Shown: positions 1 through 20,579, counted from the first letter of the stretch. The stretch: 64,000 nt of DNA from Candidatus Moraniibacteriota bacterium (GCA_049290235.1 JBATNG010000017.1:628-64627), one strand, 5' to 3'. Notes: a model not told the origin generated them from the letters alone. Numbers and translations are program-made.

Positions 1-1
1 T

Positions 2-3000
2 CTCCAAACATCCTATAACGCTGATGCCGATGGTTCCAACACCACCATTACTCTCTCGGCCGCTGATGACGGACTCATCATCACCAACCCAACGTCGAGC
101 GGTAACAACCTCTCCGCTTTCACACTTCAAGTTTCCCAGCTCAACACCACCGCGGCCATCACGACACTTGATCTGGTCCAAGCAAGCAATGCAGCGAATG
201 GTGTAGACTTGACCGCCAATGCGATCGATACCGAAACAGCGCTCTCAGTGACGGCTAATCTCCTCACTTCCGGCAAAGCCCTCACCCTCGCCTCCTCTAG
301 TACCGCTTTCACCGGCGCACTCGAAAGCATCACCCTCTCTGGCTCGAATGCCGCCAATACCGGGAACCTCCTCCTCATCGCTGACACTGGTGCCCTCAAT
401 ACCACTACCTCCTTCAAGGTCACCGCCAATGGTGCCGCTACTCAGGTTGCGGCTCTCATCGAGAACACCGGCTCGGGTACGAGCTTCCGCGTCAATGATG
501 TCGCGAGTGATACCGATCCCTTCCTCATTGATGCCACCGGCAATGTCGGGATCGGCGACGCCACCCCCAACACTCTTCTCGATGTCCTTTCCTCCGGTGC
601 GGCGGACACCATCTTCACCCTGGCCAACACGAATGCCGGTGACTATGACCCCGTGATGAAGTTTGAGTTAACCGAAGGTACCCCGCTCTTCACTCTCGGT
701 GTCGATGACTCAGACTCCGACAAGTTCAAGATCTACTCGGGCGATGGCCTGGCCAGTGGGGATGAGTTCATCATCGATGCCAATGGCACCACCACCATCG
801 CCAACCTCAACCTGGGAGCGACAACCTTCGATGAGAATGCGGGGGCGGTGACCTGGATCGATATGTCGGTGACCTCGGCCGCCGCGGTCGATACCATCGA
901 GAGCTATGCGGCCTCAATTGATGGCAATGCCCTCCTCACGGTCTATGCCGAGAGTGATGCAGCGGGGAGCATTCAGGATCGACGCGTTGTAGTCGGCACC
1001 GGTGCCGGAGATGCTGCGACCACGACCCTTCTGTCCCTCGATGTGAAGACGCTGACTGGCAATCCCACGAATGCTGTCGAAGGAGCGATGTATTACAACG
1101 CCGCTGATGACAAGTTCCGTTGTTACCAAGCCTCTGCCTGGACCGATTGTATCGGAGCCGGTGGTTCGACGACACTTCAAACCGCTTATGATACGGATGG
1201 TGACGGCACCAACACCACCATCTCTCTCACCGCCGCCGATGACGGACTGATCATCACCAACCCAACGTCTGCCGGCAACAACCTCTCGGCCTTCACGCTC
1301 CAAGTCTCGCAGCTCAATACCACCGCGGCGATCACGACGCTTGACCTGGTCCAAGCGAGCAATGCAGCGAATGGCGTGGGTTTGACAGCGAACAGTATCG
1401 ACACAGAAACGGGGCTGGCTATCAGTGCGACCGGCCTGACGTCGGGGTATGCCGAGACGATTGCGGTCAATGCTGCGACCACCCTCACCTCCGGTGGCGC
1501 TTTGAGTATCACGGGTCCGACCGGTGCCGCGGCCCAGGCGGCGGGGTCACTGCTCAAAATTTCCACTGCCGGAGCTACCACTGGTACCGCGGGATCAGGT
1601 AACTCATTTCAAGTTAGCAGTGCATCGACGCTCGGGACGATTGCGTCAATCACCGCTTCTGGGAACATGACCACGACGGGTAATCTCCTCACCTTGGGTG
1701 GCGGCACGTCGACGACTCCGACGGGACTCTTGACCGTCAATGCTTCAACCCTGACCTCGGGCTACGCAGCTGACTTCAATGTGAATGGCGCTGCAGTTCT
1801 CACTTCTGGCGGAGCGATCAATATCGATGGTCCGACGGGGGCAGCCGCTCAAGCAGCTGGATCTCTTCTCATGATCAATACAACCGGTGCTGTTACGGGT
1901 ACTGATGGTTCTGGTAATTCGTTCCAAATAAACTCAGCCACGGCCACGGGCACCGTTGCTTCTATCTCGAGTTCTGGCACGATGACGACGACCGGGGATT
2001 TGCTCACCTTGACCGCGAACAATGCCACGACAGCCACGGGACTCCTGACGATTGACGGTGGCTCGGCTATGACATCGGGATCAGTCTTCAGTGTGGCGAG
2101 CGGCAGCACGACCTATGTCCATGGTGCGGAAACGGGGAGCCTCGTGAGCTTGGCGGTGACCGATTCGACCACAGCCGCCGTGACGAGCACGACCAATAAT
2201 CTCCTCCTCTTTCCGACCATCAATGCAGCATCGGGCGCGGCCACACGAACCATCAATGGTGTCTCCATCACCCCCGCTTTCACGGCCTGTACCGCGGGCA
2301 CCTGTGCGGTCAATGGTGTGAATATCGCCAATGTCACTGACGGCACCGGCTTTACCGGTACGGCGGTCAATATCGGGACGGGCTGGGACGTGGGTATCAA
2401 TGCCGGGACCATGACAATCGAGAATATCGGCAATACCGGCACCGACTTCATCGCCAGTACCGGTGCCCTCACTCTCGCGGGCGTCCTCACCGCCAATGGC
2501 GGCATCAGTCTCGCCGGGAGTCAGTCTTTCTCAGCCTCGGCCCTCTCGTACATGGACCTGGGCGCTATCACGCACAGCTCGACGGCCAATCAAGGACTGC
2601 GTCTCCCCAATGCGGCTTCGGCTACTCCCTCGAACCCGACCTCCGGTGAAGGTTACCTCGCTTGGGATGCGGCGGGGAATCAGCTGATTACGTACAATGG
2701 TTCTTCTTGGTCCACCCTCGCGGGCGGGAGCGGCTACAATCTAATCAAGGACGAATCGACGGGACTGACGGCGCGCACCACCCTCGCCTTCCTCGGAGCA
2801 GGTGTCACTTGTGCCGACAATGCCACTCAGACCGAGTGTACGATCAATGGTGGTACGGCTCCCAGTGATACTTTACAGAATGCCTATGATGCCGGTTCGG
2901 CCGGGGATCAGGTGGTGACGCTCGATGCGACGCAGGACTCGATCATCGTCCGTAATCCCTCATCGTCTGGAAGCGATAGCACCTTCACCTTCAAGGTAGA

Positions 3001-6000
3001 GCAGCTCAACACCGGCATCGCCAATACTGCTCTCTATGTTGACAATCGTGGCACGGGGAGTGGTCTCCGCATCGATGACGAGTCCGGCGATACGACGCCA
3101 TTCATTATTGACGGTCACGGTAGAGTCGGAATTGGAACGACAACAATTTCGGAGGATTCGTCAACTGAACGATTATTTCAAGTCGGGTCCGAGACGAACC
3201 GTGGTAATAGTGTAACTTATGGTGAGGTTGTTTCTAAAGGTCAAAAAGACCTGACAGCTTTGACTGGAATCAAAGATATTTTCGTATATGATACGACGAG
3301 CGACAGCGATGGTGGTCGTTGGATTGACTGGGCGACAACTGATCAGCTTTCCTGGTATTCTGAGTCGCTCGATGACGGCCCAAGTGATCCATGTGACATA
3401 GCCTCGGATGATCGTTGCTACAAAGCAGCGTTCCCTCGAAAGGCTATCTTGATCGTGACAACATCAGCACTCTATATATTCGATGCGCAGGATAATACGA
3501 TGTGGATGAAGTTTAGTCAGAATGCAGCTGGCTATGCTCTGGGTGTCGATACAAGTAATGACCCGTCGAGCGTCACGGCCCTTAACGGCGTTGTATATGT
3601 TGGAACAAATGGAGCGTCGGCTGGTGGGCTTTATGCCATCGACTTCGTCAATGACCGCATGTGGAATTACGATGATACCGATCGCTCAGGCGCAAATGTC
3701 GGGATTAGCAGCCGCAATGCAGCCGTAACATATGCGAGCGATAACAACACGAACTTTGACCTTGGTGGGAATACGGGATGGAAAACTATTAATGATGTCT
3801 CAGCTGCAGCCATTCAGTGGAGCAATACGGCAATCGCTGCGACCACTGGCCCAGTCAACGGAATTTCTTTTGTCGCTCTGGCGACAGATTCGGGGGTTAA
3901 TTTGATCAACCTCGCCCAGCAAAGGCTTTTTCAGTACAGTCGCATCACGGACGATAATTATGAGTCAGTCGTTATTACCAAAAGTGCGAGATTGTATGCC
4001 TTGGACAGTACACGAGATGAGCTCAACATGTGGAATAATGTCGATTCAGATGTGGCAAGCCAACTCAATGTGGCGGCGGATAAAGCATGGGATGAAGCGA
4101 CCAATCCCGCTCTGACCAAGAATACACCGGTGATCGGGACCGGTAGTCCCGATGCACTTGAGGTAATTGAACGCGCCTCACTGGCTGATGGTGGACTTAC
4201 GGCTGGTACTGCGTCGGATCTTATCTACATTGGGCATGACCAGGGATTGACCGAACTCCATGACCACGCCACTCTCGCCTCTGGCTGGGTCAAGTACTAC
4301 AATACCACTCGTCAGACGGCTATACTGCCAGCCGCGACGCGTCGGGCGCATATGATGGATGATGCTTCCGGGGACGTGACCAATCAGAGCGTCGGAACGG
4401 ATATTATGGTACCCAAAGGATCCCCGACCTACGGGGTAAATGGTGTACGTGGTAAAGCGATGAGTTTCAACGGTACCTCGCAGTATCTCTGCTCTGGAAC
4501 AGGTACTACGTGTGCCAACGATACGTCTGATAACCTCAGTACGGGCAGCTGGACTATCAGTGTCTGGTTTAAACATACGGCAGGTACCGTTACCGGTACA
4601 GATACGCTCTTCGCTCGTTGTCACAATACGACGCCAGCCGCTGCGGCGGGCTGTGTCGCAGCATCTATGGTTTCATCGGGTGTTATGACGGTTAATGTTG
4701 ACTTCGACGCTACGTTTACCATTGGTCTGACTGGTACGACAGTCTTCCATAGTAGTACCCAGACATACAATGACGGTCAGTGGCATTTCCTTATGGTGAC
4801 TCGTGCTGCAACTACGGGTGCTATAAATACGATGATCGATGGTAAGCCGATTGGTCAAACTAACGGTGTTAACACAACTCTCGATGCCTCGCAGATCCTT
4901 TCCATCGGCGCTGACTGTAGCGTCGGGGCAGCTTGTGCCACGGGTGCTAACTTCTGGGATGGGTCAATTGATGACTTTGTATTGAATGCAAACGGTAGTA
5001 CCGGTACGACAGATAACATCGCCGTTGCTGCCTTGCGTCGCGTGTACAATGATGCTCGGCCACTCGTCAATAAAAGAGTGGTAGCCGTAACCAATGCCAC
5101 AAGCGCCACAACAACAACCATAACAGATACAGGTGAGACATGGATTCCTAATGAATTCGCTGGGCAGGTGATGGCGATTACATCCGATACTGGTGCGGGT
5201 CAAACGCGTCGGGTCGTTTCTAATACGACAGATACGCTTACCGTGTCTCCAGCATTCTCAACTACCCCGGATACAACTTCAGACTTCGAAGTAGATCCTG
5301 AGGCGGTCTATGGGGCTTCAAATATTGTCACTTCTATTGGTATTACGGCTGAGTCTCCTCTAGGAGAGGCTCGACAAATGTGTATTGGAACCAATAGCAC
5401 CTCGGATACCGGTGGTGTTACTTGCTACAATCACCAAGCTGGGCCAAACCTAATCGCCGATGTTTTTCATAGCGATTCAGAACAAATGGATGATAGTAGT
5501 ACAGAATGGACTGGTACTGATTATGATGATATTCGCTCGATTGATCTTTCGGGTCGGGCGCTTGTTATGGGATCAGAGGCTCATTTCTGGACCGAAACGG
5601 AAGATGTTCGTCTTGGGCAGGGTTTGGATTATCTCGCGAATCAGCTCTTCAACATCCGACAGGAGTTGATAAATGATGCCGTTACCGCTCAGGGTAGTAT
5701 CGGTGTGGAAGTTGGATTTACTGGTGGGGCGGACTTGGCGGAGCGCTACTACTCGAATGAGCCACTTCAAGCGGGGGAAGTAGTGTCTATTGACAAGAGT
5801 CTTTCGGCCGGAGTGAAGAAAACGGCCAGTCGCTATCAGCGCGATACACTCGGTATCGTCTCGACCGAACCAGGGCTCATCCTCGGGGCCGAAGCAGAGA
5901 ACGGCTACCCAATCGCCCTTGTCGGTCGAGTACCGGTCAAAGTCACCAATGAGAATGGTCCCATCTATGCTGGCGATCGAGTGACGGCAGCGAGCCGTCC

Positions 6001-7324
6001 GGGTCATGCCATGCTCGCCACTCAGGCGGGACGGGTTATCGGTCAGGCGCTGGGCGATGCGGTGGACTGGGTGGTCTGTGAGGGCGAGGATCCGCTGAAT
6101 CATGACGCCGTGCTTTGCACGACGGTCACGGTTTTTGTGAATCTCACAGATTATTATGGCCAGCCAGTCGAGCTCGCCATGGCGGCACGTGACGCAGCGG
6201 ACGCGGCCCTGGAGGCAACGACCGGGGATGAGGAAGTTGGTCTCGCTGGCGATGGTGCTACCGTCCGGCTCGCGACCGCCGCACCGACGCGGGAGGAGAA
6301 AATCATGACGTTCCTGAAAGAAGTGCGCGATGAACGAGCGAAGATGAATGTGGCAGCCTCCGAAGTCTTCACCGACCGGGTAGCCGCCTCGACCGAAATT
6401 ATCACCCCGACCCTGATCGTGGACCAGATTTTCGCCAAGAGCATCAAGGCCGACAGTATCGAGGGGCTCCAGATATTTACCGATCAACTCTCCAGTCTTT
6501 CGGAGAAGTATGCCGGGCTCGAAGCGGCTGCGAACATTGAGAGCACTTCGTCGGAAGCATCGAATGTCGTCAAGGAACAACTGGCTGTCGCCATGAAGAA
6601 CCTTTCAGTCGATACGCTAACAGTTCAGATGGATGGGAGCGTCTTGGGCAAGCTCTCGGTGGCCGGTGCCCTCACGCTCAGTGGACCGGCAGAATTTCGC
6701 GGCGAGACGCTGTTCAGTAAACTCGCGACGTTCCTCGGCGATACGGTGTTCCAGGGCAAGGCGGTCTTCGAAAAAGCCCCGACCTTCGGATCTGATACGG
6801 CTGGCTTCGCAGTCATTGCTGAAGGGCAACAGTCGGTGGATATTGCTTTCGACGAGGAATACACCAAACAGCCGATCGTCTCGGTCAGTATCACGAGCGA
6901 TGAGAGCTCGCTCTCCAAGGAAGCTGAGACTGATGTGGATCTCGCTATGGATGTCGCCGCCGTGGAGGCAGACTTCGCTGCTGCCTATTTCGATGGGGAT
7001 ATCAAGTACATCGTCACCAAGAAGAGTGAGCGGGGCTTCACCATCGTCCTCAACAAGCCCGCGCCGCGTGAGCTCCAATTCAGTTGGGTAGCCATCGCCG
7101 TCGCTGAGGCTCGGGTATCGCGCTCAGAGGAAACAGGGACGGGGGAGGACCCGGTCGACGCTGATGAGCCGCCAGACACACCTCCAGTCACTGTGCCCAC
7201 TGAACCAGCCGAGACGACTCCTCCCGTTCCGATAGTCACCCCTCCTCCAGTTCTCGTGACCACGCCAGTGGTGGACACAACACTACCGCCAGATCAGCCA
7301 GCCGTTACCACACCAGCCACCTAA
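2..7324 (+). CDS. giant repetitive surface/adhesin-like protein (5' end lies outside window; >2440 aa); LamG/ConA-like lectin domain; Pro/Thr-rich C-terminal tail
   Basis: Frame 2 is open from position 2 with no stop; the ORF track starts at TTG 209 only because no earlier ATG/GTG/TTG occurs in frame. A large internal repeat: nt 2-240 repeats at 1175-1420 (motif LxTxYxxDxDGxNTTIxLxAADDGLIITNPTSxGNNLSAFTLQVSQLNTTAAITTLDLVQASNAANGV). A second repeat pair: 1480-1640 and 1800-1960 (LTSGGAxxIxGPTGAAAQAAGSLLxIxTxGAxTGTxGSGNSFQ). FxIDxxGxVGIGxxTP motifs appear at about 500 and 3100. The LamG-like segment reads SFNGTSQYL...WTISVWFKH...GQWHFLMVTR...IDDFVL (about nt 4450-4980). The C-terminal tail is PPDTPPVTVPTEPAETTPPVPIVTPPPVLVTTP. 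Confidence 0.6.
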   Translation, partial: LQTSYNADADGSNTTITLSAADDGLIITNPTSSGNNLSAFTLQVSQLNTTAAITTLDLVQASNAANGVDLTANAIDTETALSVTANLLTSGKALTLASSSTAFTGALESITLSGSNAANTGNLLLIADTGALNTTTSFKVTANGAATQVAALIENTGSGTSFRVNDVASDTDPFLIDATGNVGIGDATPNTLLDVLSSGAADTIFTLANTNAGDYDPVMKFELTEGTPLFTLGVDDSDSDKFKIYSGDGLASGDEFIIDANGTTTIANLNLGATTFDENAGAVTWIDMSVTSAAAVDTIESYAASIDGNALLTVYAESDAAGSIQDRRVVVGTGAGDAATTTLLSLDVKTLTGNPTNAVEGAMYYNAADDKFRCYQASAWTDCIGAGGSTTLQTAYDTDGDGTNTTISLTAADDGLIITNPTSAGNNLSAFTLQVSQLNTTAAITTLDLVQASNAANGVGLTANSIDTETGLAISATGLTSGYAETIAVNAATTLTSGGALSITGPTGAAAQAAGSLLKISTAGATTGTAGSGNSFQVSSASTLGTIASITASGNMTTTGNLLTLGGGTSTTPTGLLTVNASTLTSGYAADFNVNGAAVLTSGGAINIDGPTGAAAQAAGSLLMINTTGAVTGTDGSGNSFQINSATATGTVASISSSGTMTTTGDLLTLTANNATTATGLLTIDGGSAMTSGSVFSVASGSTTYVHGAETGSLVSLAVTDSTTAAVTSTTNNLLLFPTINAASGAATRTINGVSITPAFTACTAGTCAVNGVNIANVTDGTGFTGTAVNIGTGWDVGINAGTMTIENIGNTGTDFIASTGALTLAGVLTANGGISLAGSQSFSASALSYMDLGAITHSSTANQGLRLPNAASATPSNPTSGEGYLAWDAAGNQLITYNGSSWSTLAGGSGYNLIKDESTGLTARTTLAFLGAGVTCADNATQTECTINGGTAPSDTLQNAYDAGSAGDQVVTLDATQDSIIVRNPSSSGSDSTFTFKVEQLNTGIANTALYVDNRGTGSGLRIDDESGDTTPFIIDGHGRVGIGTTTISEDSSTERLFQVGSETNRGNSVTYGEVVSKGQKDLTALTGIKDIFVYDTTSDSDGGRWIDWATTDQLSWYSESLDDGPSDPCDIASDDRCYKAAFPRKAILIVTTSALYIFDAQDNTMWMKFSQNAAGYALGVDTSNDPSSVTALNGVVYVGTNGASAGGLYAIDFVNDRMWNYDDTDRSGANVGISSRNAAVTYASDNNTNFDLGGNTGWKTINDVSAAAIQWSNTAIAATTGPVNGISFVALATDSGVNLINLAQQRLFQYSRITDDNYESVVITKSARLYALDSTRDELNMWNNVDSDVASQLNVAADKAWDEATNPALTKNTPVIGTGSPDALEVIERASLADGGLTAGTASDLIYIGHDQGLTELHDHATLASGWVKYYNTTRQTAILPAATRRAHMMDDASGDVTNQSVGTDIMVPKGSPTYGVNGVRGKAMSFNGTSQYLCSGTGTTCANDTSDNLSTGSWTISVWFKHTAGTVTGTDTLFARCHNTTPAAAAGCVAASMVSSGVMTVNVDFDATFTIGLTGTTVFHSSTQTYNDGQWHFLMVTRAATTGAINTMIDGKPIGQTNGVNTTLDASQILSIGADCSVGAACATGANFWDGSIDDFVLNANGSTGTTDNIAVAALRRVYNDARPLVNKRVVAVTNATSATTTTITDTGETWIPNEFAGQVMAITSDTGAGQTRRVVSNTTDTLTVSPAFSTTPDTTSDFEVDPEAVYGASNIVTSIGITAESPLGEARQMCIGTNSTSDTGGVTCYNHQAGPNLIADVFHSDSEQMDDSSTEWTGTDYDDIRSIDLSGRALVMGSEAHFWTETEDVRLGQGLDYLANQLFNIRQELINDAVTAQGSIGVEVGFTGGADLAERYYSNEPLQAGEVVSIDKSLSAGVKKTASRYQRDTLGIVSTEPGLILGAEAENGYPIALVGRVPVKVTNENGPIYAGDRVTAASRPGHAMLATQAGRVIGQALGDAVDWVVCEGEDPLNHDAVLCTTVTVFVNLTDYYGQPVELAMAARDAADAALEATTGDEEVGLAGDGATVRLATAAPTREEKIMTFLKEVRDERAKMNVAASEVFTDRVAASTEIITPTLIVDQIFAKSIKADSIEGLQIFTDQLSSLSEKYAGLEAAANIESTSSEASNVVKEQLAVAMKNLSVDTLTVQMDGSVLGKLSVAGALTLSGPAEFRGETLFSKLATFLGDTVFQGKAVFEKAPTFGSDTAGFAVIAEGQQSVDIAFDEEYTKQPIVSVSITSDESSLSKEAETDVDLAMDVAAVEADFAAAYFDGDIKYIVTKKSERGFTIVLNKPAPRELQFSWVAIAVAEARVSRSEETGTGEDPVDADEPPDTPPVTVPTEPAETTPPVPIVTPPPVLVTTPVVDTTLPPDQPAVTTPAT

Positions 7325-7372
7325 ACCCTCCCCTTCGACTGGCTCAGGACCAATAGGCCGGAGGGTTTTCGT
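7325..7372 (+). terminator. possible stem-loop terminator after giant gene (ccctcc...ggaggg + TTTT), long loop
   Basis: Inverted repeat accctcccc (7325-7333) / ccggagggtttt (7358-7369). Confidence 0.25.
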
Positions 7373-7439
7373 TCGTGTTCGCTTTGCTCCTATCGGCGAG
7401 AATATCTTCCTTTCTTTTACATCCAGTGTCTGTGTCTAT

Positions 7440-7457
7440 TTCTTTTGGCAGCGAAAG
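7440..7457. repeat. inverted 18-nt fragment of the hairpin module of the interspersed element (reverse complement of 10356-10373)
   Basis: ttcttttggcagcgaaag is the exact reverse complement of ctttcgctgccaaaagaa at 10356-10373. Confidence 0.6.
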
Positions 7458-7704
7458 GCATCTGTTCATTTCTTTGTGCGTCCAAAGAAACGAACCAAAG
7501 AAAACCGCACCCGAGCTTTCGGTTCATACGGTTGCCAGCCACACCCTCCGGCGGTTTTCTCGCGAGAGACTGAGAAAACCTTCTTCCTTCAGGCGTGGGG
7601 CAACCGTCTCACCTCCCGCAATGGGTGATTGAGAAATTCAAGGCCGAAAAAATAGGTCAGATGCGAATGCATTCCATTTCCTGATACGTCCTTGGTGGCA
7701 GTCG

Positions 7705-7888
7705 AGGCCATGGTTTCCGATTGGCGGAGAGTAACTATTTCCTCAGTCCCTCGCGAGGAAATAGTCGGAGCTAATCGTGAAACTATCCGAGATGAGAACC
7801 GGGCGGCAGTTTTCCCTGCCCGAAGTGCTACATCGTTGCAGGCGGGTTTGGAACTTTCTTTTTCTGTTAAAAGAAAGTGGAAAGAACC
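7705..7888 (+). repeat. interspersed intergenic element copy A: module X (7705-7811), module Y (7812-7854), terminal hairpin (7856-7888); candidate structured RNA
   Basis: Module X (gaggccatggtttccgattggcggag...aatcgtgaaac.atccga...ccgggc.gc) recurs at 10231-10340. Its internal stem actatttcctc/gaggaaatagt in copy A becomes actattttctc/gagaaaatgg in copy B, a compensatory C-G to U-A change. The enclosing helix cgattg/caatcg is conserved. The hairpin ctttcttttt..aaaagaaagtgg is shared with copy B. Confidence 0.5.
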
Positions 7889-8058
7889 TTTGTGTATACA
7901 AAGGAATAAACAGTGATCCTTGACCTCCCATTCCGGGGGGTATCATCGGTAGGCACTTTGACAATTCCGTCGCGTGCCCGCTCACGCGATTGGCTGAATC
8001 AAACCCTGGGACTTTTTCTATTGCTCAAGATGGATTAGTCCATGCTAGACTTATTTGT

Positions 8059-9069
8059 ATGAATCCAAAAGTCTTTGCTTCTATCGTCGCGCTTGTTGGT
8101 GTCGGACTTATCGGTGGCTATTTTGCTCATGACCTCGTGGATGATCGGCGAGAGGGGAGGCATTCGCGTGATTGGTCCGAGATGAACAATACTTCGAAAC
8201 AAGTTCGCCAAATGGGGAACTATTCCTATATCAACCCTCTCCTCGAGTGTGAGGTCGCCGAGGGTACGCTGGATGCGAGAAAGGAGAACTTTCGTGATGT
8301 TCTCGAAATCCGCGTCAATCAACTGAAGAAGGAAAAAAATCTTTCAGAGGTTGCCGTGTATTATCGGGATTTGAATAATGGACCAACGTTTGGTGTCGAC
8401 GAACAAGGGGAATTCTTCCCCGCCTCACTTCTGAAGGTGCCAGTCATGATGGCCTACTATCACCTCGCTGAGCAGGATCCGTCAGTACTGGGCGTGAAGA
8501 TCGCTTATGGACAGCCGCGCGATTTTGGCATCACCCCGACGATCATGCCGCGCGAGAGCCTCGTCCCGGGCGAATCGTATACGGTCGATGATCTCATCCG
8601 GCGGATGATCATCTTTTCCGATAATCAGGCGCTCGCGCTTCTCTCCGAGCGTCTCCCACTCACGGTTCTCCAGGATCTCTTTGCGATGCTCGGGGTGGGA
8701 AGTGATGTACTCGTAAATGCCGATTCCAAGTTGACGGTGAAGGAGTATGCGGGATTCTTCCGAATACTTTTCAATAGTTCGTACCTTTCGCGGGAATCCT
8801 CGGAAAAGGCGCTCGCTCTCCTTTCTTCGACTGACTACAATGACGCGCTTCCGGCAGGTATTCCCAAGGGTGTTGTCGTCTCGCATAAGTTTGGTGAAGC
8901 AGGCACTGCCAATGTAGAACGACAACTCCACGACTGTGGGATTGTGTATTTCCCGAACCATCCCTATCTCGCCTGTATTATGACGCGCGGGCAGGATGTC
9001 GATGAGCTCAAGGACGCTATCGTCGATGTCTCCCAATTCATCTACGAGAAAATCGACGAGCAGTACTAG
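8059..9069 (+). CDS. membrane-anchored serine hydrolase, class A beta-lactamase-like fold
   Basis: ATG at 8059 precedes an N-terminal TM helix (NPKVFASIVALVGVGLIGGYF). SxxK motif at FFPASLLK, SDN motif at FSDNQA, KTG-like box HKFGEAG followed by DCGIVYFP. The ORF track start at 7990 is likely too far upstream. Confidence 0.6.
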   Translation: MNPKVFASIVALVGVGLIGGYFAHDLVDDRREGRHSRDWSEMNNTSKQVRQMGNYSYINPLLECEVAEGTLDARKENFRDVLEIRVNQLKKEKNLSEVAVYYRDLNNGPTFGVDEQGEFFPASLLKVPVMMAYYHLAEQDPSVLGVKIAYGQPRDFGITPTIMPRESLVPGESYTVDDLIRRMIIFSDNQALALLSERLPLTVLQDLFAMLGVGSDVLVNADSKLTVKEYAGFFRILFNSSYLSRESSEKALALLSSTDYNDALPAGIPKGVVVSHKFGEAGTANVERQLHDCGIVYFPNHPYLACIMTRGQDVDELKDAIVDVSQFIYEKIDEQY

Positions 9070-9107
9070 AGGCCGTACTCGGCCCGCTTGAAATTTGGTA
9101 TACTGGA

Positions 9108-9842
9108 GTGGCTATGGATAGTATCAATCGACCGAACATACCTGGACGCAGCGCGATTCCGCGCTCCGGATGGCGATTTTCTCGGGTGAGCTTTGTCCTC
9201 TCGATTCTCCTCCTCGCCGCTGTCGGCGCGGCGGGTTACTTCTATTATCAGTACCGCCAGTCGCCGAAAGTACAAAGTGCGGGAGAAGTGAAGGATCTGA
9301 AAGAAGAAATCGGTGCTATTTTTGAGCTCCCTACAGGTGAAGAACCGACGTTGGCGACCGTGACTGACCGGGACAAGCTCGCTGAGCAGCCGTTTTTTCA
9401 AAAGGCAGAAAATGGTGACAAGGTGCTCATCTATTCTACCTCTGGTCGTGCCGTCCTCTATCGCCCGAGCACGAAGAAAATCGTCGATGTAACGGCGGTC
9501 AATGTTAACCAACCAGCAGCTCCGACACCTGAAGTACCATCGGCTGCGCCGGCACCGAAAATTGCTCGCGTCGCTCTCTTGAATGGTACGACGGTGGCCG
9601 ATACGGCTGCTACGGCTGAGGTGAAGGTGAAAGCTGCGGTCCCTAATGCAGCCGTCGTCACCAAAGCAAATGCGGTAAAGCGTGACTATACCGAGACAGT
9701 CGTCGTCGATGTGACCGGTCAAAATTCAGAAATTGCTAACGGTATCGCCGCCGCGCTTAGTGGATCGGTTGCTGTCTTGCCCGTGGGTGAAACAGCGCCT
9801 TCAGATGCGGATATCCTTGTCATCCTCGGAAGTGACACCTAG
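9108..9842 (+). CDS. LytR_C (LytR/CpsA/Psr C-terminal) domain membrane protein
   Basis: N-terminal TM (VSFVLSILLLAAVGAAGYFYY). The C-terminus reads ARVALLNGTTVADTAATAEVKVKAA...TVVVDVTG...ADILVILGSDT, typical of the LytR_C domain. Confidence 0.55.
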   Translation: MAMDSINRPNIPGRSAIPRSGWRFSRVSFVLSILLLAAVGAAGYFYYQYRQSPKVQSAGEVKDLKEEIGAIFELPTGEEPTLATVTDRDKLAEQPFFQKAENGDKVLIYSTSGRAVLYRPSTKKIVDVTAVNVNQPAAPTPEVPSAAPAPKIARVALLNGTTVADTAATAEVKVKAAVPNAAVVTKANAVKRDYTETVVVDVTGQNSEIANGIAAALSGSVAVLPVGETAPSDADILVILGSDT

Positions 9843-9996
9843 CCCACTTTGTTATCGCTTTTTGGCCGCTCGGACTTTTTCCGAGCTTTTTCTTTGGTAC
9901 GGTCCCCACTATTTTCCTCACTTTGTCCGCGCAAGTTTTTGTCCCCACCTTTTTGATAATTAACTTTATGTCCCTTTCTTTTCGCGCCAAAATAAA

Positions 9997-10057
9997 GTTC
10001 CAAACCCGCCTGCAACGATGTAGCACTTCGGGCAGGGAAAGTTGCTGTCCTGTTCTC
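9997..10057 (-). repeat. interspersed element copy B, inverted partial copy (module Y plus about 20 nt of the 3' end of X)
   Basis: gttccaaacccgcctgcaacgatgtagcacttcgggcagggaa is the reverse complement of module Y at 7812-7854. Similarity continues into the reverse complement of the 3' end of X. Confidence 0.55.
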
Positions 10058-10230
10058 CGGCTTACGTTTTGTTACCCGTTCTCCCCAGTGACATCCTCGC
10101 GCTTCGGAAAGCTGAGAATGTCATGCTCCTTCGAGAACGGAACAAAAATACTCATCTCCCGGAGTGGATAGGTTTAGAATTCTCCCACAATGGATGATTT
10201 GCGCTCACTCAACCGCCCATGTTGAGAGGT

Positions 10231-10385
10231 GAGGCCATGGTTTCCGATTGGCGGAGGATCACTATTTTCTCAGTCTGTCGCGAGAAAATGGCTGGAGACA
10301 ATCGTGAAACGATCCGAACCAGAAACCCCGGGCAGCCGTTTTCTTTCTCCACTTTCTTTCGCTGCCAAAAGAAAGTGGAAATCAG
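10231..10385 (+). repeat. interspersed element copy B, direct copy of module X plus terminal hairpin, immediately upstream of dnaG; candidate structured RNA or 5' leader
   Basis: See copy A. Hairpin ccactttctttcgctgccaaaagaaagtgg at 10350-10380. It ends about 55 nt before the dnaG start. Confidence 0.5.
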
Positions 10386-10438
10386 TCCTGTATTTGAAAT
10401 GGGAGTAGAATAAGGGTAGAATAGAGCGCTATCTATAT

Positions 10439-12307
10439 ATGAGTACTACGACCGAAGACATCAAATCCCGCCTGAATATCGTCGACGTGGTCGGCCAGTA
10501 CGTGAAGCTGCAGAAGGCTGGGTCACACTGGAAGGCGAATTGCCCGTTCCATCAGGAGAAGACGCCCTCTTTCTCCGTGAACGAGGAGCGCAATATGTGG
10601 CACTGTTTCGGCTGTGGCAAGGGCGGGGATGTGTTCGCGTTTGTCATGGAGATCGAGGGGCTGGAATTCCGTGAGGCACTGAAGCTCCTCGCGGAGAAGG
10701 CGGGGGTCGAGCTGCCCGAATATCGTGGAGGTGGTGGGCAGAAGCCTGAAATGAAAGACCGAGGACTGGAAATATTGGAGCTTGCGACGAAATTCTATGA
10801 GAAACAGCTCTGGGAGAGCGAACGCGGCAAGGCGATACTCGCCTATCTCCATGAACGCGGACTGACCGACGAATCCATCCGCACCTATCGGCTGGGCTAT
10901 GCGCCGGATGGCTGGCGTTTCATTTTTGAATTTCTCCTGAAACGAGGGTATAGCGCAGACGAAATAGAACGTACTGGCCTGGTCATTCGTAAAACCAACA
11001 ACCAACAACCAACAATCAGCAACGCGGATCCCTCCCAACCCACAACCCACAACCCGCAACCTACAACCTCGGCCTACTACGATCGTTTTCGCGACCGCAT
11101 CATGTTTCCGATTGGAGACATCCTCGGCCGGCCGATCGGCTATTCGGCCCGCGTCGCCCCTGGTGGGGACGAAAGTCAAGCGAAATATATCAATACTCCA
11201 GAGACGAATTTGTACTACAAGAGTCGGGCGCTCTATGGCCTCGCCCTCGCCAAGCAGTCGATCAAAGAATCAGGCCGAGCGATCCTCGTTGAGGGCAATA
11301 TGGATGTCATCGCACTCCATCAGGCGGGGCTGGCCAATGTCGTCGCAGTGTCTGGGACGGCGCTGACCGTTGAGCAGCTCGGGATATTGAAGCGCTATGG
11401 AAAGAAACTCGCCCTGTTCTTCGATATGGACAAGGCGGGGCAGGCAGCAGCCTGGAAGAGTGCCATCCTCGCGTTTGGTCTGGACTTCGCGGTCGAAGCC
11501 GTCGCGCTCTCGAGTGGCAAGGACGCGGCTGATATGAACCGCGAAGACCCGGAGCAGTTGCGTGCCGCCGTAGCGGATGCCCAGCCGGCGATGCGGTACT
11601 TTCTCGATTCGCTCCTCCGGGATGCTGATGCCGGGAGTCAGGACGGCAAGAACCAAATCGTCGAACGCTATGCTGAGCTCTTGGCCGCGACTCAGAATGA
11701 GCTCGATCGATCGCACTGGACCAAGGAACTCGCGGCCGCCATCGGTGCTGAACCAAAGGTCGTCCAGGCAACGGTCGAAAAAGTCTTTCGCTCGCTGCAA
11801 CGCGGCGATCACTTCATCGAAAGCCGTCCGAGCGGGACCTTTCTCCCGAAGACTTTTGGCCGTCGATCGGAAGTCTTGCGTGAAGGGCTCATCGGTCTCA
11901 TGCTCGCCAGTCCGACGGCGCAAGAGGTCGTCGCGCTTGAGACAGACAGAGCTGTCTTGGACTTTCTCGCGCTCCACCCGATCGCTTTCTTCATTCGCAA
12001 TAATCCATCGGATCCGATCGCCGCGATCGAGGATCGAGCCCTTCAGAGTCTCGCGAGTGATATCTTGTTCCGGACACTCGAGCTCCCCAGTTTGCGCGCG
12101 GCCGAAGAGGAGAGAGAAACGGTCGCAGCGAATATCACAGGTGAATATCTGCGGGATCTGCGGTCCGAATTGCATGAAAAGGATGAACGTCTCGCCCTCG
12201 GGCGCGCGATTGAAGCCGCTCGACAGGCTGGTAACAAAGAGGAGGAACGCCGTCTCTTTGAGGAATTTGCTCGACTGACCAAGGGCGATGCTTCCCAGAA
12301 CGGGTGA
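10439..12307 (+). CDS. dnaG: DNA primase
   Basis: Zinc-binding motif CPFHQEKTPSFSVNEERNMWHCFGCGKGGDVFAFVM. TOPRIM region EGNMDVIALHQAGLANVVAVSGTAL...FDMDKAGQAAA. A low-complexity Q/P/T insert is encoded by a caacca-type repeat at about 10990-11080. Confidence 0.9.
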   Translation: MSTTTEDIKSRLNIVDVVGQYVKLQKAGSHWKANCPFHQEKTPSFSVNEERNMWHCFGCGKGGDVFAFVMEIEGLEFREALKLLAEKAGVELPEYRGGGGQKPEMKDRGLEILELATKFYEKQLWESERGKAILAYLHERGLTDESIRTYRLGYAPDGWRFIFEFLLKRGYSADEIERTGLVIRKTNNQQPTISNADPSQPTTHNPQPTTSAYYDRFRDRIMFPIGDILGRPIGYSARVAPGGDESQAKYINTPETNLYYKSRALYGLALAKQSIKESGRAILVEGNMDVIALHQAGLANVVAVSGTALTVEQLGILKRYGKKLALFFDMDKAGQAAAWKSAILAFGLDFAVEAVALSSGKDAADMNREDPEQLRAAVADAQPAMRYFLDSLLRDADAGSQDGKNQIVERYAELLAATQNELDRSHWTKELAAAIGAEPKVVQATVEKVFRSLQRGDHFIESRPSGTFLPKTFGRRSEVLREGLIGLMLASPTAQEVVALETDRAVLDFLALHPIAFFIRNNPSDPIAAIEDRALQSLASDILFRTLELPSLRAAEEERETVAANITGEYLRDLRSELHEKDERLALGRAIEAARQAGNKEEERRLFEEFARLTKGDASQNG

Positions 12308-14910: not shown

Positions 14911-14985
<75 letters not shown>

Positions 14986-15168
14986 ACATCAGTATTTCTC
15001 AAGCGACCGGTTCCCATCCGTGGGGAAAGGCCGGAGGGAAGGGAAGAATCGTCACGGAAGGTGGCGATTTTTCTTTCCTCTCACACCGGTTTCATTGCCG
15101 GTCGGCAATCGGATTCGAACCAGGGAAATCTGATTGTATGATATGAAATTTTTATCAACGGTATCAAT

Positions 15169-16326
15169 ATGAATAATCTCAACCCGTATTCAGCTCTATT
15201 CGATGGCGGCAAGAAACGGATCAGATACAACGGAAATAGCGTATTCCAGCCCATTGAGGACGTCAAAGAATCCGATTTCAGCGAAGGGATCACGACAGGA
15301 AGGATCGCGAAGATTTTTCAGGATCCGGAATATTTTTATCACCTTCACAAGGTAGACAATGGGATATTCTTCGGAGCGGTGGAATACTTCCGATCGATCG
15401 ATGCCGAGTGGTGCAATCTTCCCCTCACGACACTCATGATTTCATCTCCGGGAGAAGTGTACGCCGGAAAAACGCTGGATTACACGACCGATACGCTCCC
15501 GGTTGATATATCCTGGTTTGACAATAAGCGGAACGTCTTTCTTTCGGAAAGTTCACAATTCTATCTCGAGCTGAGGCTCCTGACGCAGAATATCGGTAAG
15601 GTCTTTTCCATATATAATTCGTTCAGAAAAGAAAAGGCGGACTTTTGTCATCTTTCGGAGTTCCAGCACATCGAATTCGAGGGGAAGGTTTCTTTTGACC
15701 AGAATATTGATATCTTTCTCGGTTTGATGCGTCACATCACGAAGTATCTTATAGACAATGAGAGAGAAAGCCTGGAGTACTTCATCGGGGAGGAAAAGCT
15801 GAAGGAGCTTGCCGATGCCTTTTCAGAGGGAAATATCGTTACGATTACCTTCAAGGAGGCGCTTGAAGCTCTCCATAAGGAGACCGGGGATGATATGTAC
15901 AAGGAATTCAGCCTGAAAAACTTCGGTGCATGGGAAGAAATAAGACTTACGGAGATATTCGGCAAGCACGTCATTGTGACGAAATTCCCGCTTTTGCAGA
16001 TTCCTTTCTATCACAACGAACTTGAGGAGAATGAGGACGGGGTTCCGCTCGCCGAGAATGCCGATTTCATCCTCTGTGGTTATCGGGAAACCGTCGGAAG
16101 CGGAACGAGAATTTCAAATTCGGAAGCCTTAAAGGAGAAAGCGAAGACTTTCAATCTTCCTATGTCGGATTACGATCCGTATATTCAGACCCGTCTGAGG
16201 GAAGGGTATCAAAAGACTTCCGGTTTCGGTCTCGGATGGCAGCGGTATGTGCAATGGGTATTACAGTTGCCATATATATGGGAAGCGACACATATACCGC
16301 GAGGACATCATCTCCCTAAGCCGTAA
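15169..16326 (+). CDS. AsnA-type asparagine synthetase / class II aaRS-like catalytic core without an anticodon-binding domain
   Basis: Motif-2-like FRKEKADFCHLSEFQHIEFEG, motif-3-like GSGTRI...GFGLGWQRYVQWVLQLPYIWE. The C-terminus resembles AsnA ([22 protein letters not shown]). No N-terminal OB-fold. Confidence 0.6.
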   Translation: MNNLNPYSALFDGGKKRIRYNGNSVFQPIEDVKESDFSEGITTGRIAKIFQDPEYFYHLHKVDNGIFFGAVEYFRSIDAEWCNLPLTTLMISSPGEVYAGKTLDYTTDTLPVDISWFDNKRNVFLSESSQFYLELRLLTQNIGKVFSIYNSFRKEKADFCHLSEFQHIEFEGKVSFDQNIDIFLGLMRHITKYLIDNERESLEYFIGEEKLKELADAFSEGNIVTITFKEALEALHKETGDDMYKEFSLKNFGAWEEIRLTEIFGKHVIVTKFPLLQIPFYHNELEENEDGVPLAENADFILCGYRETVGSGTRISNSEALKEKAKTFNLPMSDYDPYIQTRLREGYQKTSGFGLGWQRYVQWVLQLPYIWEATHIPRGHHLPKP

Positions 16327-16339
16327 AATCAATAAATAT

Positions 16340-17182
16340 ATGGATCAGAAGACCTTCGATAATTTTTTTCAGCCATACGCAAAAAATGTCGACAAAGCCG
16401 ACGATGTGAGCGCCTTTTGGCGACTCTCTGATGCATTGATCATGGAGATTATCAAGGAAAGTATCGGAAAGCATTGTTCCGAGCAATCAGCTGTATGTGA
16501 TGCGGGGGGTGGGACTGGACGGTGGGTGGTGAAGATGAGCATAGAGATTCCCGGAAAATTCATGGTCTACGATCGCTCGGTCGATATGCTCGCAAAAGCG
16601 AAAGAAAATATTGAAAAAGCCGGCCTTTCCGATAAGGTAACGCTCGTTCAGGGAGACTTGACCGATATGAAGAGTATTGAAAGCGAGTCGATCGATCATA
16701 TCGTGAGTATTTACAGCCCGATAAGCTTCATTTCCGAGAACGGAAAGGCAGCTTCGGAAATGTATCGTGTTCTCAAAAAAGGAGGGAGAATTCTTCTTAT
16801 GGGACACAGTTACTATAATGCGCTTGCGTCGAAAGTGAACAATTATCGGGCCGATTCCGAAGAGCTCGCGCGGCTCTCGGAAGAATATCGGGTGAAGTGG
16901 GCACCATATGTCCCTGAGCTGGTGACTTTTTCGAAGGAGAGTATGGAGTCTCTCTTGAAAACGGCTGGCTTCCGAATTGAGAAAACATACGGCGTTCCGG
17001 TGTTCGTTCAGCCCGGTCCGGAAGATTTTGATCCGGAGAACGAGAAGGTGAGCGCGGTGTCAACCTATCTGGAGAATCCGGACGTATTCAAGCAGATATT
17101 CGATTTGGAAATGGAACACAACAGCAGGGATACAGTTGCCAATCGGGGGATGAACATATTCACTCTAGCCACAAAGATATGA
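16340..17182 (+). CDS. class I SAM-dependent methyltransferase
   Basis: Motif I VCDAGGGTGRW, motif post-I VYDRSVDML, LVQGDLTDM. ATG at 16340 lies just after the upstream stop at 16324-16326. Confidence 0.7.
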   Translation: MDQKTFDNFFQPYAKNVDKADDVSAFWRLSDALIMEIIKESIGKHCSEQSAVCDAGGGTGRWVVKMSIEIPGKFMVYDRSVDMLAKAKENIEKAGLSDKVTLVQGDLTDMKSIESESIDHIVSIYSPISFISENGKAASEMYRVLKKGGRILLMGHSYYNALASKVNNYRADSEELARLSEEYRVKWAPYVPELVTFSKESMESLLKTAGFRIEKTYGVPVFVQPGPEDFDPENEKVSAVSTYLENPDVFKQIFDLEMEHNSRDTVANRGMNIFTLATKI

Positions 17183-18204: not shown

Positions 18205-18230
18205 TAACGTGGAATAGTGTAAAAAAATTA

Positions 18231-20562: not shown

Positions 20563-20579
20563 TGTGATTTTCCGTGTTT

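What the first reader, a model, noticed from the sequence alone, without database searches (positions are those of the whole stretch)
7440..10385. Two copies of a modular intergenic element with compensatory base-pair changes; candidate structured RNA or 5' leader
A module X of about 110 nt (ggccatggtttccgattggcggag...aatcgtgaaac.atccga...ccgggc.gc) occurs upstream of the serine-hydrolase gene (7705-7811) and immediately upstream of dnaG (10231-10340). Between the copies, the internal stem actatttCctc/gagGaaatagt changes to actatttTctc/gagAaaatgg. This is a compensatory C-G to U-A substitution that preserves pairing. The enclosing helix cgattg/caatcg and a 3' hairpin (..aaaagaaagtgg) are also conserved. 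A second module Y of about 43 nt follows X in copy A, but lies inverted and 190 nt upstream of X in copy B. An 18-nt piece of the hairpin is also found inverted at 7440-7457. Preserved secondary structure combined with modular shuffling suggests either a MITE-like mobile structured element or a cis-regulatory RNA shared by two operons. I could not match it to RNase P RNA, tmRNA, SRP RNA, 6S RNA, hammerhead ribozymes or the common riboswitch classes.
Basis: seen in the sequence. Interest (0 to 1): 0.7.

Follow-up and report, generated by a model that had tools for sequence, protein, structure and literature searches.

The report
Paired structured intergenic repeat in Moranbacteria
The two "copies" are four arms of a non-coding repeat, arranged as two head-to-head pairs; each arm folds into a conserved hairpin rod, the family occurs only around one variable gene cluster next to dnaG in some uncultured Moranbacteria (CPR), and it is not a leader of dnaG.

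Summary
The region holds four arms of one 180-215-nt element (7459-7636 -, 7678-7888 +, 9963-10178 -, 10207-10384 +). They form two head-to-head pairs, one in each intergenic region.

I found 17 arms in six related Candidatus Moranbacteria genomes. Each unit normally combines one arm from each of two subfamilies, s1 and s2.

A 14-arm alignment supports a rod-like fold:
- 93% of cells are paired.
- 23 of 25 pairs show compensatory double changes.
- 0 of 500 shuffles reach the observed values.

G-U outnumbers A-C by 22:1 in the pairs, so the folded strand reads outward from the centre in both arms. The hairpin loop AGUCnnUCGC and a purine-rich GGA/GGA internal loop are conserved.

What it is not:
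- There is no Rfam match.
- There is no conserved ORF.
- The arms have no promoters of their own.
- It is not a leader, because the dnaG promoter and the -10 box of the bla-like (Beta-lactamase2 family) gene lie downstream of the units.

Units are absent from seven related lineages. They occupy three different positions in either orientation, their arms reassort, and decayed or modular variants exist. No copies occur elsewhere in about 390 kb searched.

Best reading: a low-copy, MITE/bcr1/ERIC/REPIN-like foldback repeat that acts as folded single strands. A pair of divergent small RNAs is the main rival. Interest is moderate.

The parts
7436..7458 (-). Outer terminal half-hairpin of unit A on the s2 side (CTATTTCTTTTGGCAGCGAAAGG). 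It is the inverted counterpart of the s1-type terminal hairpin, so it acts as the left terminal inverted repeat.
   Evidence: 7439-7457 is 100% identical to 10356-10374 inverted. The same extra s1-type half-hairpin lies outside the s2 hairpin in L012, L019, L020, L022 and L026.
7459..7636 (-). Arm A_s2 (subfamily 2). The rod fold is at 7500-7632, its inner hairpin at 7553-7580, and its terminal A/T-rich hairpin at 7464-7495.
   Evidence: CM 127.5 bits; nhmmer 153 bits; stem GGTTTTCTC/GAGAAAACC with loop AGTCTCTCGC.
7637..7677 (.). Centre of unit A, where the 5' ends of the two arms face each other. It contains the palindrome GAATGCATTC (7665-7674).
   Evidence: The centre length varies from 6 to about 50 nt among units.
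7678..7888 (+). Rod 7682-7814; inner hairpin 7734-7765 with loop AGTCCCTCGC (7745-7754); Y insertion 7815-7846; terminal hairpin 7853-7883.
   Evidence: CM 130.1 bits; nhmmer 137 bits; MFE -71.9 kcal/mol, z = -3.8; Y located.
9963..10178 (-). Arm B_x, a diverged arm carrying Y. Rod 10037-10175; inner hairpin 10090-10122 (GACATTCTC/GAGGATGTC with an enlarged loop); Y insertion 10005-10036; terminal hairpin 9973-10003.
   Evidence: CM 96 bits; nhmmer 94 bits; inverted repeat I1; Y located.
10179..10206 (.). Centre of unit B.
10207..10384 (+). Arm B_s1 (subfamily 1, without Y). Rod 10209-10343; inner hairpin 10262-10291 with loop AGTCTGTCGC; terminal hairpin 10349-10378.
   Evidence: CM 120.9 bits; nhmmer 140 bits.
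10394..10422 (+). dnaG promoter (TTGAAA-N17-TAGAAT). It is not part of the element. It lies between unit B and the dnaG ATG at 10439.
   Evidence: 10 of 12 positions match; the best site in the region. It is conserved in L012, L016, L024 and L026, and two of those lack the element.
9868..9886 (+). Intrinsic terminator of the upstream LytR_C-like gene. It is not part of the element. Unit B lies between this terminator and the dnaG promoter.
   Evidence: GCTCGGA...TCCGAGC followed by TTTTTCTTTG.

Best explanation
The region contains two units of a non-coding foldback repeat, each 0.42-0.46 kb. A unit is two diverged arms of 180-215 nt placed head-to-head, normally one s1 and one s2 arm. Both ends of the unit carry the same A/T-rich hairpin (CCACTTTCTTTT..AAAAGAAAGTGG), so these hairpins act as terminal inverted repeats.

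Shown: each arm, read from the centre outward, folds on its own into a roughly 130-nt imperfect rod. The fold has these features:
- four helices;
- a conserved 3x3 purine loop (GGA/GGA);
- a bulged-A hairpin with loop AGUCnnUCGC;
- possibly a closing helix, CGCCC/GGGCG in s1 or CACCC/GGGUG in s2;
- a T/U-rich tract (GTTTTCTTTGG) followed by the terminal hairpin.

Also shown: selection keeps the fold and the unpaired motifs while the stem sequences turn over.

Inferred: the unit is a low-copy, non-autonomous intergenic repeat of the bcr1/ERIC/Correia/REPIN kind. I propose that it persists and moves by recombination or by trans-acting transposition within a hypervariable locus (giant ORF, then bla-like, then LytR_C-like, ending at dnaG). 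I also propose that the conserved loops of its arms are recognised by a protein as folded single strands, either ssDNA or transcript. It sits between the upstream terminator and the downstream promoter, and it is dispensable to the host.
For: Four arms in the window and 17 in six genomes, always as head-to-head pairs.

Fold:
- 93.3% of cells are paired, 23 of 25 pairs have double changes, 0 of 500 shuffles reach the observed values, and slid controls give 28-51% paired.
- G-U outnumbers A-C by 22:1, and the sense strand is more stable than the antisense strand in 12 of 14 arms.
- The arms fold separately within the whole unit.

Repeat-like behaviour:
- Units are absent from L005-8, L009, L010, L014, L016, L023 and L024, although L016 is 91% identical to L012 in DnaG.
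- Units occupy three positions: A before the bla-like gene, C between the bla-like and LytR_C-like genes (L019), and B before dnaG. Both orientations occur; L020 is inverted relative to the window at the same site.
- The same s1b/s2b pair sits at position B in L012 and position C in L019. Elsewhere the arm phylogenies are discordant.
- Decay and module variants exist: a truncated inner hairpin in L12_A_s2, a rod-less arm in L026, and extra half-hairpins. Y is inserted at the identical site in s1, s2 and x arms.
- Units always lie between a terminator and a promoter.
- 15 of 16 arms have no sigma-70-like promoter.
- There is no conserved ORF, no Rfam hit, and no phage or plasmid match.
- The s1 arms at position A are 86-89% identical across genomes whose dnaG DNA is 76-79% identical.

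Precedent: bcr1 is a MITE-like repeat with compensatory changes that keep a structure (PMC3184786). REPINs are inverted doublets that fold as ssDNA or mRNA (PMC3116915).
Against: - Every copy found lies in one 3-kb gene neighbourhood. There is none elsewhere in the 64-kb window or in about 390 kb of window plus loci. A prolific MITE would be dispersed.
- The family is rare. A permissive motif scan of the JGI metagenomes gave one true locus. A stricter motif gave none in the GTDB representative genomes.
- I could recognise no target-site duplication, and I found no clean empty site.
- The annotated part of the window holds no transposase.
- The many conserved unpaired positions are more typical of a functional RNA or RNP than of a transposon end.
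- I could not scan whole genomes of the hosts.
Confidence: 0.45

Rival explanations
1. Each arm is a small structured RNA gene of about 135-150 nt. The two paralogues (s1 and s2) would be transcribed divergently from the centre and end at the U-rich tract. They would act in trans or as an RNP, perhaps on the neighbouring cell-envelope genes.
For: - Strong covariation and many conserved unpaired nucleotides.
- The G-U versus A-C asymmetry puts the functional strand in the outward direction in both arms.
- A possible closing helix, followed by UUUUCUUU.
- The optional GC-rich hairpins (Y, and the 33-nt insert in L022) sit exactly before that U-tract and look like terminators in the outward direction.
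- In L022 each arm points toward a divergent bla-like gene.
- The arms are more conserved than dnaG DNA between genomes.
Against: - 15 of 16 arms have no sigma-70-like promoter upstream, although this organism's dnaG promoter is canonical.
- In L019 and L022 the two arms are only 6 nt apart, which leaves no room for a central promoter.
- There is no canonical intrinsic terminator.
- The unit is dispensable and patchy, its position and orientation vary, and decayed copies exist.
Confidence: 0.3
2. The arms are folded-ssDNA sites used in host or mobile-element DNA transactions. They would be attC-like or ssi-like recombination or priming sites, one on each strand. They would mark and promote exchange of the hypervariable cassette (giant ORF, bla-like, LytR_C-like) next to dnaG.
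For: - Strand-specific folds lie on opposite strands.
- The structure is conserved while the stem sequence turns over, as in attC sites.
- Units flank the bla-like/LytR_C-like pair in the window and in L012.
- That segment has a discordant history: window versus L020 is 91% identical from the dnaG start onward but about 71% upstream, and LytR_C is closer to L012 than to L007.
- Arrays of TTTCTTTGG motifs at the unit ends look like protein-binding sites on double-stranded DNA.
Against: - The same similarity breakpoint at the dnaG start exists between L007 and L020, which have no unit there.
- No integrase, primase or Rep gene is linked to the units.
- The attC R''/R' consensus is absent.
- There is no experimental handle.
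Confidence: 0.1
3. The element is a cis-regulatory 5' leader or riboswitch shared by the serine-hydrolase and dnaG operons.
For: The + strand arms lie upstream of the bla-like gene and of dnaG in the window, and the structure is conserved.
Against: - The promoters lie downstream of the units.
- Half of the arms are antisense to the neighbouring genes.
- The unit is inverted in L020 and sits between the bla-like and LytR_C-like genes in L019.
- It is absent upstream of dnaG in most relatives.
- There is no Rfam match.
Confidence: 0.03
4. The arms encode small proteins, that is, the 74-aa ORF at 7692-7916 and the 64-aa ORF at 10219-10413.
For: - ORFs overlap the s1 arms, and there is an SD-like GGAGGTGA plus ATG in the window copies.
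- Gene callers have called such ORFs elsewhere.
Against: - Every frame carries stop codons in some arms. L22_A_s1 and L19_C_s1 have in-frame stops five codons before the loop, and all s2 arms are closed in that frame.
- The ATG is lost in L012 and L020.
- Y and other indels shift the frame.
- The substitutions preserve base pairing, not amino acids.
- There is no Pfam hit.
Confidence: 0.02
5. This is a plain local duplication of intergenic DNA with no constraint, and the apparent pairing is chance.
For: All copies in the window lie within 3 kb of each other.
Against: - Homologous arms in six genomes keep the fold through wholesale stem replacement, for example CTATTTCCTC, GGTTTCATA, CCATCGTATC and GGGCTTCATC.
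- 0 of 500 shuffles reach the observed covariation.
- The arms are more conserved than the flanking genes.
Confidence: 0.03

Closest known systems
bcr1 repeat of the Bacillus cereus group (MITE-like; described in review PMC3184786)
   Same: - A non-coding intergenic repeat of about 150 nt.
- Its genomic distribution is not conserved among close relatives.
- Compensatory base changes keep a double-stranded, cruciform-like fold.
   Different: - bcr1 is dispersed in tens of copies and is flanked by 5-bp direct repeats.
- Here the copies are few, confined to one gene neighbourhood, always in head-to-head pairs of two subfamilies, and show no recognisable target duplication.
ERIC/IRU and Correia/BOX/RUP-type small palindromic intergenic repeats (PMC3184786; details on ERIC insertion variants are from my own knowledge)
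   Same: - Imperfect palindromes of about 100-160 nt lying between genes.
- Either orientation occurs.
- Variants with internal insertions or deletions exist, and BOX is modular.
- Presence or absence varies among relatives.
   Different: - Those families are multi-copy and dispersed.
- Their hairpin is formed by the element's two ends.
- Here each arm has its own internal multi-helix fold with conserved loops, and two arms form an obligate pair.
REPINs (REP doublets forming hairpins) mobilised by RAYT transposases (PMC3116915, PMC3337134)
   Same: - The replicative unit is two palindromic elements in inverted orientation separated by a short spacer.
- They are predicted to fold in ssDNA or mRNA.
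- Single copies are decayed remnants of doublets.
   Different: - REPs are 20-60 nt and occur in hundreds of copies.
- They are linked to one RAYT gene per genome.
- The arms here are 180-215 nt, low-copy, of two diverged subfamilies, and no RAYT or Y1 transposase was seen.
Orphan structured 'ssNA' motifs found by comparative genomics (Weinberg/Breaker-type candidate RNAs, some proposed to act as ssDNA; from my own knowledge)
   Same: - A covarying multi-helix fold with conserved loops.
- No known function.
- It is unclear whether it acts as RNA or as ssDNA.
   Different: - It is not in Rfam 15.
- The obligate outward-facing pairing and the confinement to one variable locus are unusual.

Membership tests
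MITE (TIR-type non-autonomous transposon) | Short (under about 600 bp), non-coding | tested here: met
   Units are 0.35-0.46 kb, and all reading frames are interrupted in some arms.
MITE (TIR-type non-autonomous transposon) | Terminal inverted repeats | tested here: met
   Both unit ends finish in ..GCTGCCAAAAGAAAGTGG read outward (7436-7458 and 7853-7883). The same holds in five other genomes.
MITE (TIR-type non-autonomous transposon) | Target-site duplication flanking the element | tested here: inconclusive
   No direct repeat is recognisable at the unit flanks. The element boundaries are uncertain and there is no clean empty site for comparison.
MITE (TIR-type non-autonomous transposon) | Multiple dispersed copies in a genome | tested here: not met
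   CM and nhmmer --max searches of the 64-kb window and 28 loci found copies only at positions A, B and C of one gene cluster. I could not scan whole genomes.
MITE (TIR-type non-autonomous transposon) | A cognate autonomous IS with matching ends | not testable with these tools
   There is no transposase in the annotated part of the window.
REP / REPIN | 20-60-nt REP palindromes in inverted doublets, hundreds of copies per genome, one RAYT gene | tested here: not met
   The inverted doublet architecture is present. However, the arms are 180-215 nt and low-copy, and no Y1-transposase gene was seen.
Cis-regulatory RNA leader / riboswitch | Lies between the promoter and the start codon, in fixed orientation upstream of a conserved gene class | tested here: not met
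   The promoters lie downstream of the units. Both orientations and three positions occur.
Cis-regulatory RNA leader / riboswitch | Covarying conserved secondary structure | tested here: met
Independent small RNA gene | Own promoter and terminator bracketing the conserved structure | tested here: not met
   Only 1 of 16 arms has even a loose sigma-70 match upstream. There is no canonical terminator, only a U-rich tract, with GC hairpins in 4 arms. A consensus scan cannot exclude atypical promoters.
Any Rfam 15 family (6S, SRP, RNase P, tmRNA, ribozymes, riboswitches and others) | Covariance-model score at or near the gathering threshold | tested here: not met
   The only match in the window at gathering scores is tRNA-Asn. 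In 7300-10450 at E<=10 there is only a spurious 8-bit lncRNA hit.
IS200/IS605-type ends / PATE | Subterminal hairpins at both ends on one strand, and TnpA (Y1) and/or TnpB in the genome | tested here: inconclusive
   The perfect-palindrome terminal hairpins read the same on both strands, so the first feature is formally satisfied. No TnpA or TnpB was seen in the window. The rest of the genome was not searched.
Integron attC site | R''/L''-L'/R' organisation (RYYYAAC...GTTRRRY), one per cassette in a single orientation, with an integron integrase nearby | tested here: not met
   The consensus ends are absent from the arm sequences. The arms occur in opposed pairs, and no integrase is adjacent.
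Small protein gene | An ORF conserved across homologues | tested here: not met
   Stop codons occur in every frame in some arms. There is no Pfam hit.

The most novel reading that the evidence does not exclude
The arms are a previously undescribed class of structured single-stranded nucleic acid specific to Moranbacteria (CPR). They would be either two divergently expressed paralogous ncRNAs or opposed folded-ssDNA sites. In this reading they work only as an outward-facing s1/s2 pair, bind a dedicated protein through the conserved AGUCnnUCGC loop and the GGA/GGA internal loop, and have a role tied to the hypervariable locus of giant surface protein and cell-wall genes next to dnaG, rather than being selfish DNA.
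Probability: 0.25. Interest if true: 0.7.

Novelty: new variant of a known kind. Interest (0 to 1): 0.45.

Why it matters
Little is known about non-coding elements in CPR/Patescibacteria, which have tiny genomes with little room for junk DNA. This family has clear covariation, a strand-specific fold, conserved loops and an obligate two-subfamily head-to-head arrangement. It is confined to a fast-changing surface and cell-wall gene cluster.

- If it is a repeat, it shows how miniature foldback elements persist at very low copy number in reduced genomes.
- If it is an RNA or an ssDNA site, it is a new structured motif with a ready-made covariance model and a testable protein-binding loop.

For annotation, the practical lessons are that the small ORFs called over it are spurious and that it is not a dnaG leader.

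Tried and rejected
- Rfam at gathering threshold and at E<=10: nothing.
- Genome-collection scan with the strict loop pattern TTYCTCAGTCNNTCGCGAGRAAA: only two chance hits in delta-proteobacterial MAGs, scoring 14-17 bits with the CM.
- Metagenome scan with GRAG-N13-TMAGTCYNTCGYKA-N8-YYGGAR: 3 loci, of which only L019 is real.
- Viral contigs: 0 hits for three patterns, including Y.
- Phage and plasmid BLAST: no meaningful hit.
- Coding hypothesis: rejected because of stop codons.
- Leader hypothesis: rejected because of promoter positions.
- SD/anti-SD pseudoknot between the GGGAGG motif and the hairpin loop: rejected, because the two middle loop bases vary (CC, UG, UC, CA) and pairing is not kept.
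- Replication origin or terminus: no GC-skew switch at 7-10 kb.
- Folded-ssDNA promoter (Frpo-like): I read no -35/-10-like boxes in the rod.
- Target-site duplications and empty-site comparisons (L012 against L016, window against L007): the intergenic DNA cannot be aligned outside the promoter.
- Searching the protein database with the spurious ORF translations as a proxy for DNA worked modestly, giving 4 extra contigs.
- Literature searches for CPR structured RNAs or MITEs found nothing relevant.


Full report

Yes.
- X (7687-7790) matches 10214-10317 at 81% over 104 nt (D3). BLAST gives E = 6e-25.
- Y is longer than reported. 7794-7877 matches 9974-10057 inverted, 84 nt at 87% (I1), with a 47-nt stretch that is identical.
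- The A/T-rich 3' hairpin recurs at 7853-7883, 9973-10003 and 10351-10381 (D6).
- 7439-7457 is an exact inverted copy of 10356-10374.
- The compensatory change C-G to U-A in the inner stem is as described.

**2.

A second inverted match links 7546-7578 to 10265-10297 (I2). A four-way alignment then showed that the DNA upstream of each X is itself a diverged, inverted copy of the whole element.

The region therefore contains four arms:
- 7459-7636 (-)
- 7678-7888 (+)
- 9963-10178 (-)
- 10207-10384 (+)

In each intergenic region the two arms lie head-to-head, with their 5' ends facing a short centre.

'Module Y' is mostly the 3' part of the third arm. Its identical core (CCTGCCCGAAGTGCTACATCGTTGCAGGCGGG) is a 32-nt optional insertion between GTTTTC and TTTGG, present in two of the four arms. 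The '18-nt piece' at 7440-7457 is the outer terminal half-hairpin of unit A.

**3. Organism and relatives.**

The window is identical to contig JBATCZ010000152 of GCA_049663145.1. Its DnaG and LytR_C-like proteins place it among Candidatus Moranbacteria/Moraniibacteriota, in the CPR (Patescibacteria).

I fetched the same locus from 13 other lineages.

Units are present in:
- L012 (positions A and B)
- L019 (position C, between the bla-like and LytR_C-like genes)
- L020, which is the complete 1.22-Mb genome CP064975.1 (position A, whole unit inverted)
- L022 (position A, between divergent bla-like genes)
- L026 (position A pair, plus a position B s2 arm with Y and a rod-less s1 remnant)

Units are absent from L005-8, L009, L010, L014, L016, L023 and L024/25. 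L016 is 91% identical to L012 in DnaG.

A protein-database search with the spurious ORF translations found four more arm-bearing contigs.

There are no copies anywhere else in the 64-kb window or in the other loci, about 390 kb in all. I tested this with the covariance model and with nhmmer --max.

The family is rare. One true locus came from the JGI metagenome scan. None came from viral contigs, phages or plasmids.

**4. Anatomy.**

The arms fall into two subfamilies.
- s1 has the 5' motif ACGCCCTTGGTGGCA.GCGAGG and the terminal hairpin CCACTTTCTTTT..AAAAGAAAGTGG.
- s2 has the 5' motif TCACCCATTGCGGGAGGTGA and the terminal hairpin TTCGTTTCTTTG..CAAAGAAATGAA.

A unit is normally one s1 plus one s2 arm. 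On the s2 side an extra s1-type half-hairpin lies outside the s2 hairpin, so both unit ends read ..GCTGCCAAAAGAAAGTGG outward. These are terminal inverted repeats.

The centre is 6 to about 50 nt long.

**5. The fold.**

On the 14-arm covariance-model alignment:
- 93.3% of cells form standard pairs. Shuffles give 70.5%, and slid registers give 28-51%.
- 23 of 25 pairs show changes on both sides.
- 0 of 500 shuffles reach any of the five measures.

Whole stems are replaced while the loop AGUCnnUCGC and the GGA/GGA internal loop stay. Examples of inner stems are CTATTTCCTC, CCATTTCCTC, GGTTTTCTC, GGTTTCATA, CCATCGTATC and GGGCTTCATC.

A closing helix (CGCCC/GGGCG in s1, CACCC/GGGUG in s2) has modest support: 83% paired and 4 of 6 pairs with double changes, on a hand-registered alignment.

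G-U outnumbers A-C by 22 to 1 in the pairs, and the sense strand folds better than the antisense strand in 12 of 14 arms. The selected strand therefore reads from the centre outward in both arms. In the whole unit the arms fold separately and do not pair with each other.

**6. What it is not.**

- Not a known RNA: Rfam gives nothing.
- Not coding: every frame has stops in some arms, the ATG is lost in L012 and L020, and substitutions keep pairs rather than amino acids.
- Not a dnaG or hydrolase leader, for two reasons. First, the best promoter in the region (TTGAAA-N17-TAGAAT, 10394-10422) lies between unit B and the dnaG ATG, and it is conserved in relatives without units. Second, a conserved TAGACT/TAGAAT box sits 7-8 nt before the bla-like ATG.
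- Each unit lies between the terminator of the upstream gene and the promoter of the downstream gene.
- Not an origin or terminus of replication: there is no GC-skew switch.

**7. Dynamics.**

- The same s1b/s2b pair lies at position B in L012 and at position C in L019 (83% and 86% identity).
- The window's s1 arm groups with L012 and L020 (86-89%), but its s2 arm groups with L022 (84%). Arms therefore reassort.
- Position-A s1 arms are more similar between genomes (86-89%) than dnaG DNA is (76-79%). The flanking intergenic DNA cannot be aligned at all.
- The units sit in a hypervariable block. Window versus L020 is 91% identical from the dnaG start onward but about 71% upstream. The window's LytR_C-like protein is closer to L012 (66%) than to L007 (50%), even though DnaG is 94% identical to L007.
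- That breakpoint also exists between genomes without units (L007 versus L020), so the units are not required for it.

**8. Mechanism.**

Shown:
- a paired, non-coding, strand-specifically folded element under selection for its structure and loop motifs;
- it is dispensable, patchy, and variable in position and orientation;
- it has modular and decayed variants;
- it has no recognisable promoters of its own (only 1 of 16 arms has even a loose match).

Inferred as most likely (about 0.45): it is a low-copy foldback repeat of the bcr1/ERIC/Correia/REPIN kind. Its arms must fold as single strands, either ssDNA or transcript, to be recognised by a trans-acting protein. It persists by local transposition or recombination in a variable locus. 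There are precedents for MITE-like repeats with compensatory changes (bcr1) and for inverted doublets as the replicative unit (REPINs) (PMC3184786, PMC3116915).

Main rival (about 0.3): two divergent small structured RNAs. The richness of conserved unpaired positions favours this. So do the U-tract after the fold and the terminator-like GC hairpins inserted exactly there in four arms. The lack of promoters and the 6-nt centres in L019 and L022 argue against it.

A folded-ssDNA recombination or priming site is a minor rival (about 0.1).

**9. Novelty and score.**

This is an undescribed family, absent from Rfam, phage and plasmid collections. It belongs to a known general kind, namely structured palindromic intergenic repeats or orphan structured motifs.

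Three features are unusual:
- the obligate s1/s2 head-to-head pairing;
- the very low copy number;
- the confinement to one variable gene cluster in a CPR lineage.

Interest is moderate (0.45). It would rise if transcripts or a binding protein were found.

Noticed in passing
window 14911-30000: tRNA-Asn (14911-14985) is followed by a low-GC island (0.43-0.48 against 0.54). Partial tRNA-Asn 3' copies lie at 20690-20712 and 24740-24826, and a 68-nt repeat links 20773-20840 to 24789-24856. These look like att-type repeats bounding two tandem integrated islands. The cargo includes two class-II aaRS-like genes, an AbiEii toxin (21600-22310) and an AEP-TOTE primase fused to a ResIII/DEAD helicase (22518-24278). 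Relatives L005 and L010 carry a large serine recombinase at the same tRNA.
   Followed up: partly
window 1-10438 against 10439 onward: There is a sharp mosaic boundary at the dnaG start codon. The window is 91% (L020) and 87% (L007) identical in DNA from dnaG onward, but only about 70% or unalignable upstream (giant ORF, bla-like, LytR_C-like). Two alternative dnaG upstream regions exist among relatives: the TTGAAA..TAGAAT..TAGAAT type and the TATAAT..TAGGATATCCAGAC type. The window carries the type of the more distant L012/L016 lineage.
   Followed up: partly
window 209-7324: A giant ORF runs off the window start. It is more than 2371 aa here and 2593-3866 aa in relatives. It has internal 279-nt repeats at 2-280 and 1175-1453 (76%). 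It diverges strongly between close relatives and is probably a surface protein.
   Followed up: no
window 7815-7846 and 10005-10036; L026 6146-6178; L022 about 6471-6503: The 32-nt Y module is identical in two window arms of different types. It is almost identical in an s2 arm of another genome (L026), always inserted between (G/C)TTTTC and the following T-rich stretch (TTTGG in the window; TTGG in L026). In L022 a different 33-nt GC-rich hairpin occupies the same site. Y occurs nowhere outside arms. This is either a mini insertion module or an optional terminator-like hairpin.
   Followed up: partly
window 7940-7990 and 8040-8060: Downstream of unit A, the segment GCACTTTGACAATTCCGTC..CCGCTCAC is shared with L012 (L012 2911-2952). 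A -10-like box (TAGACT/TAGAAT) lies 7-8 nt before the ATG of the bla-like gene in the window, L012, L020 and L026. This suggests a leaderless or near-leaderless mRNA.
   Followed up: no
window 7665-7674: The perfect palindrome GAATGCATTC lies in the centre of unit A, on the 5' side of the s1 arm. It is conserved in L012 (about 2685-2694) and L020 (about 8612-8621). Compact units have GAATTC at the dyad instead (L019 708-713).
   Followed up: no
window 9900-9945: A possible further decayed fragment of an inner hairpin (CCACTATTTTCCTCACTTTGTCCGCGCAAG) lies on the + strand upstream of arm B_x. It resembles ACTATTTCCTCAGTCCCTCGCGAGG but was not detected by the CM or by nhmmer.
   Followed up: no
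window 25406-25455 / 28113-28162 and 57680-57775: There are two other local repeats: a 50-nt direct repeat at 88% inside the low-GC island, and a 48-nt tandem duplication inside a minus-strand ORF (D10 and D13).
   Followed up: no
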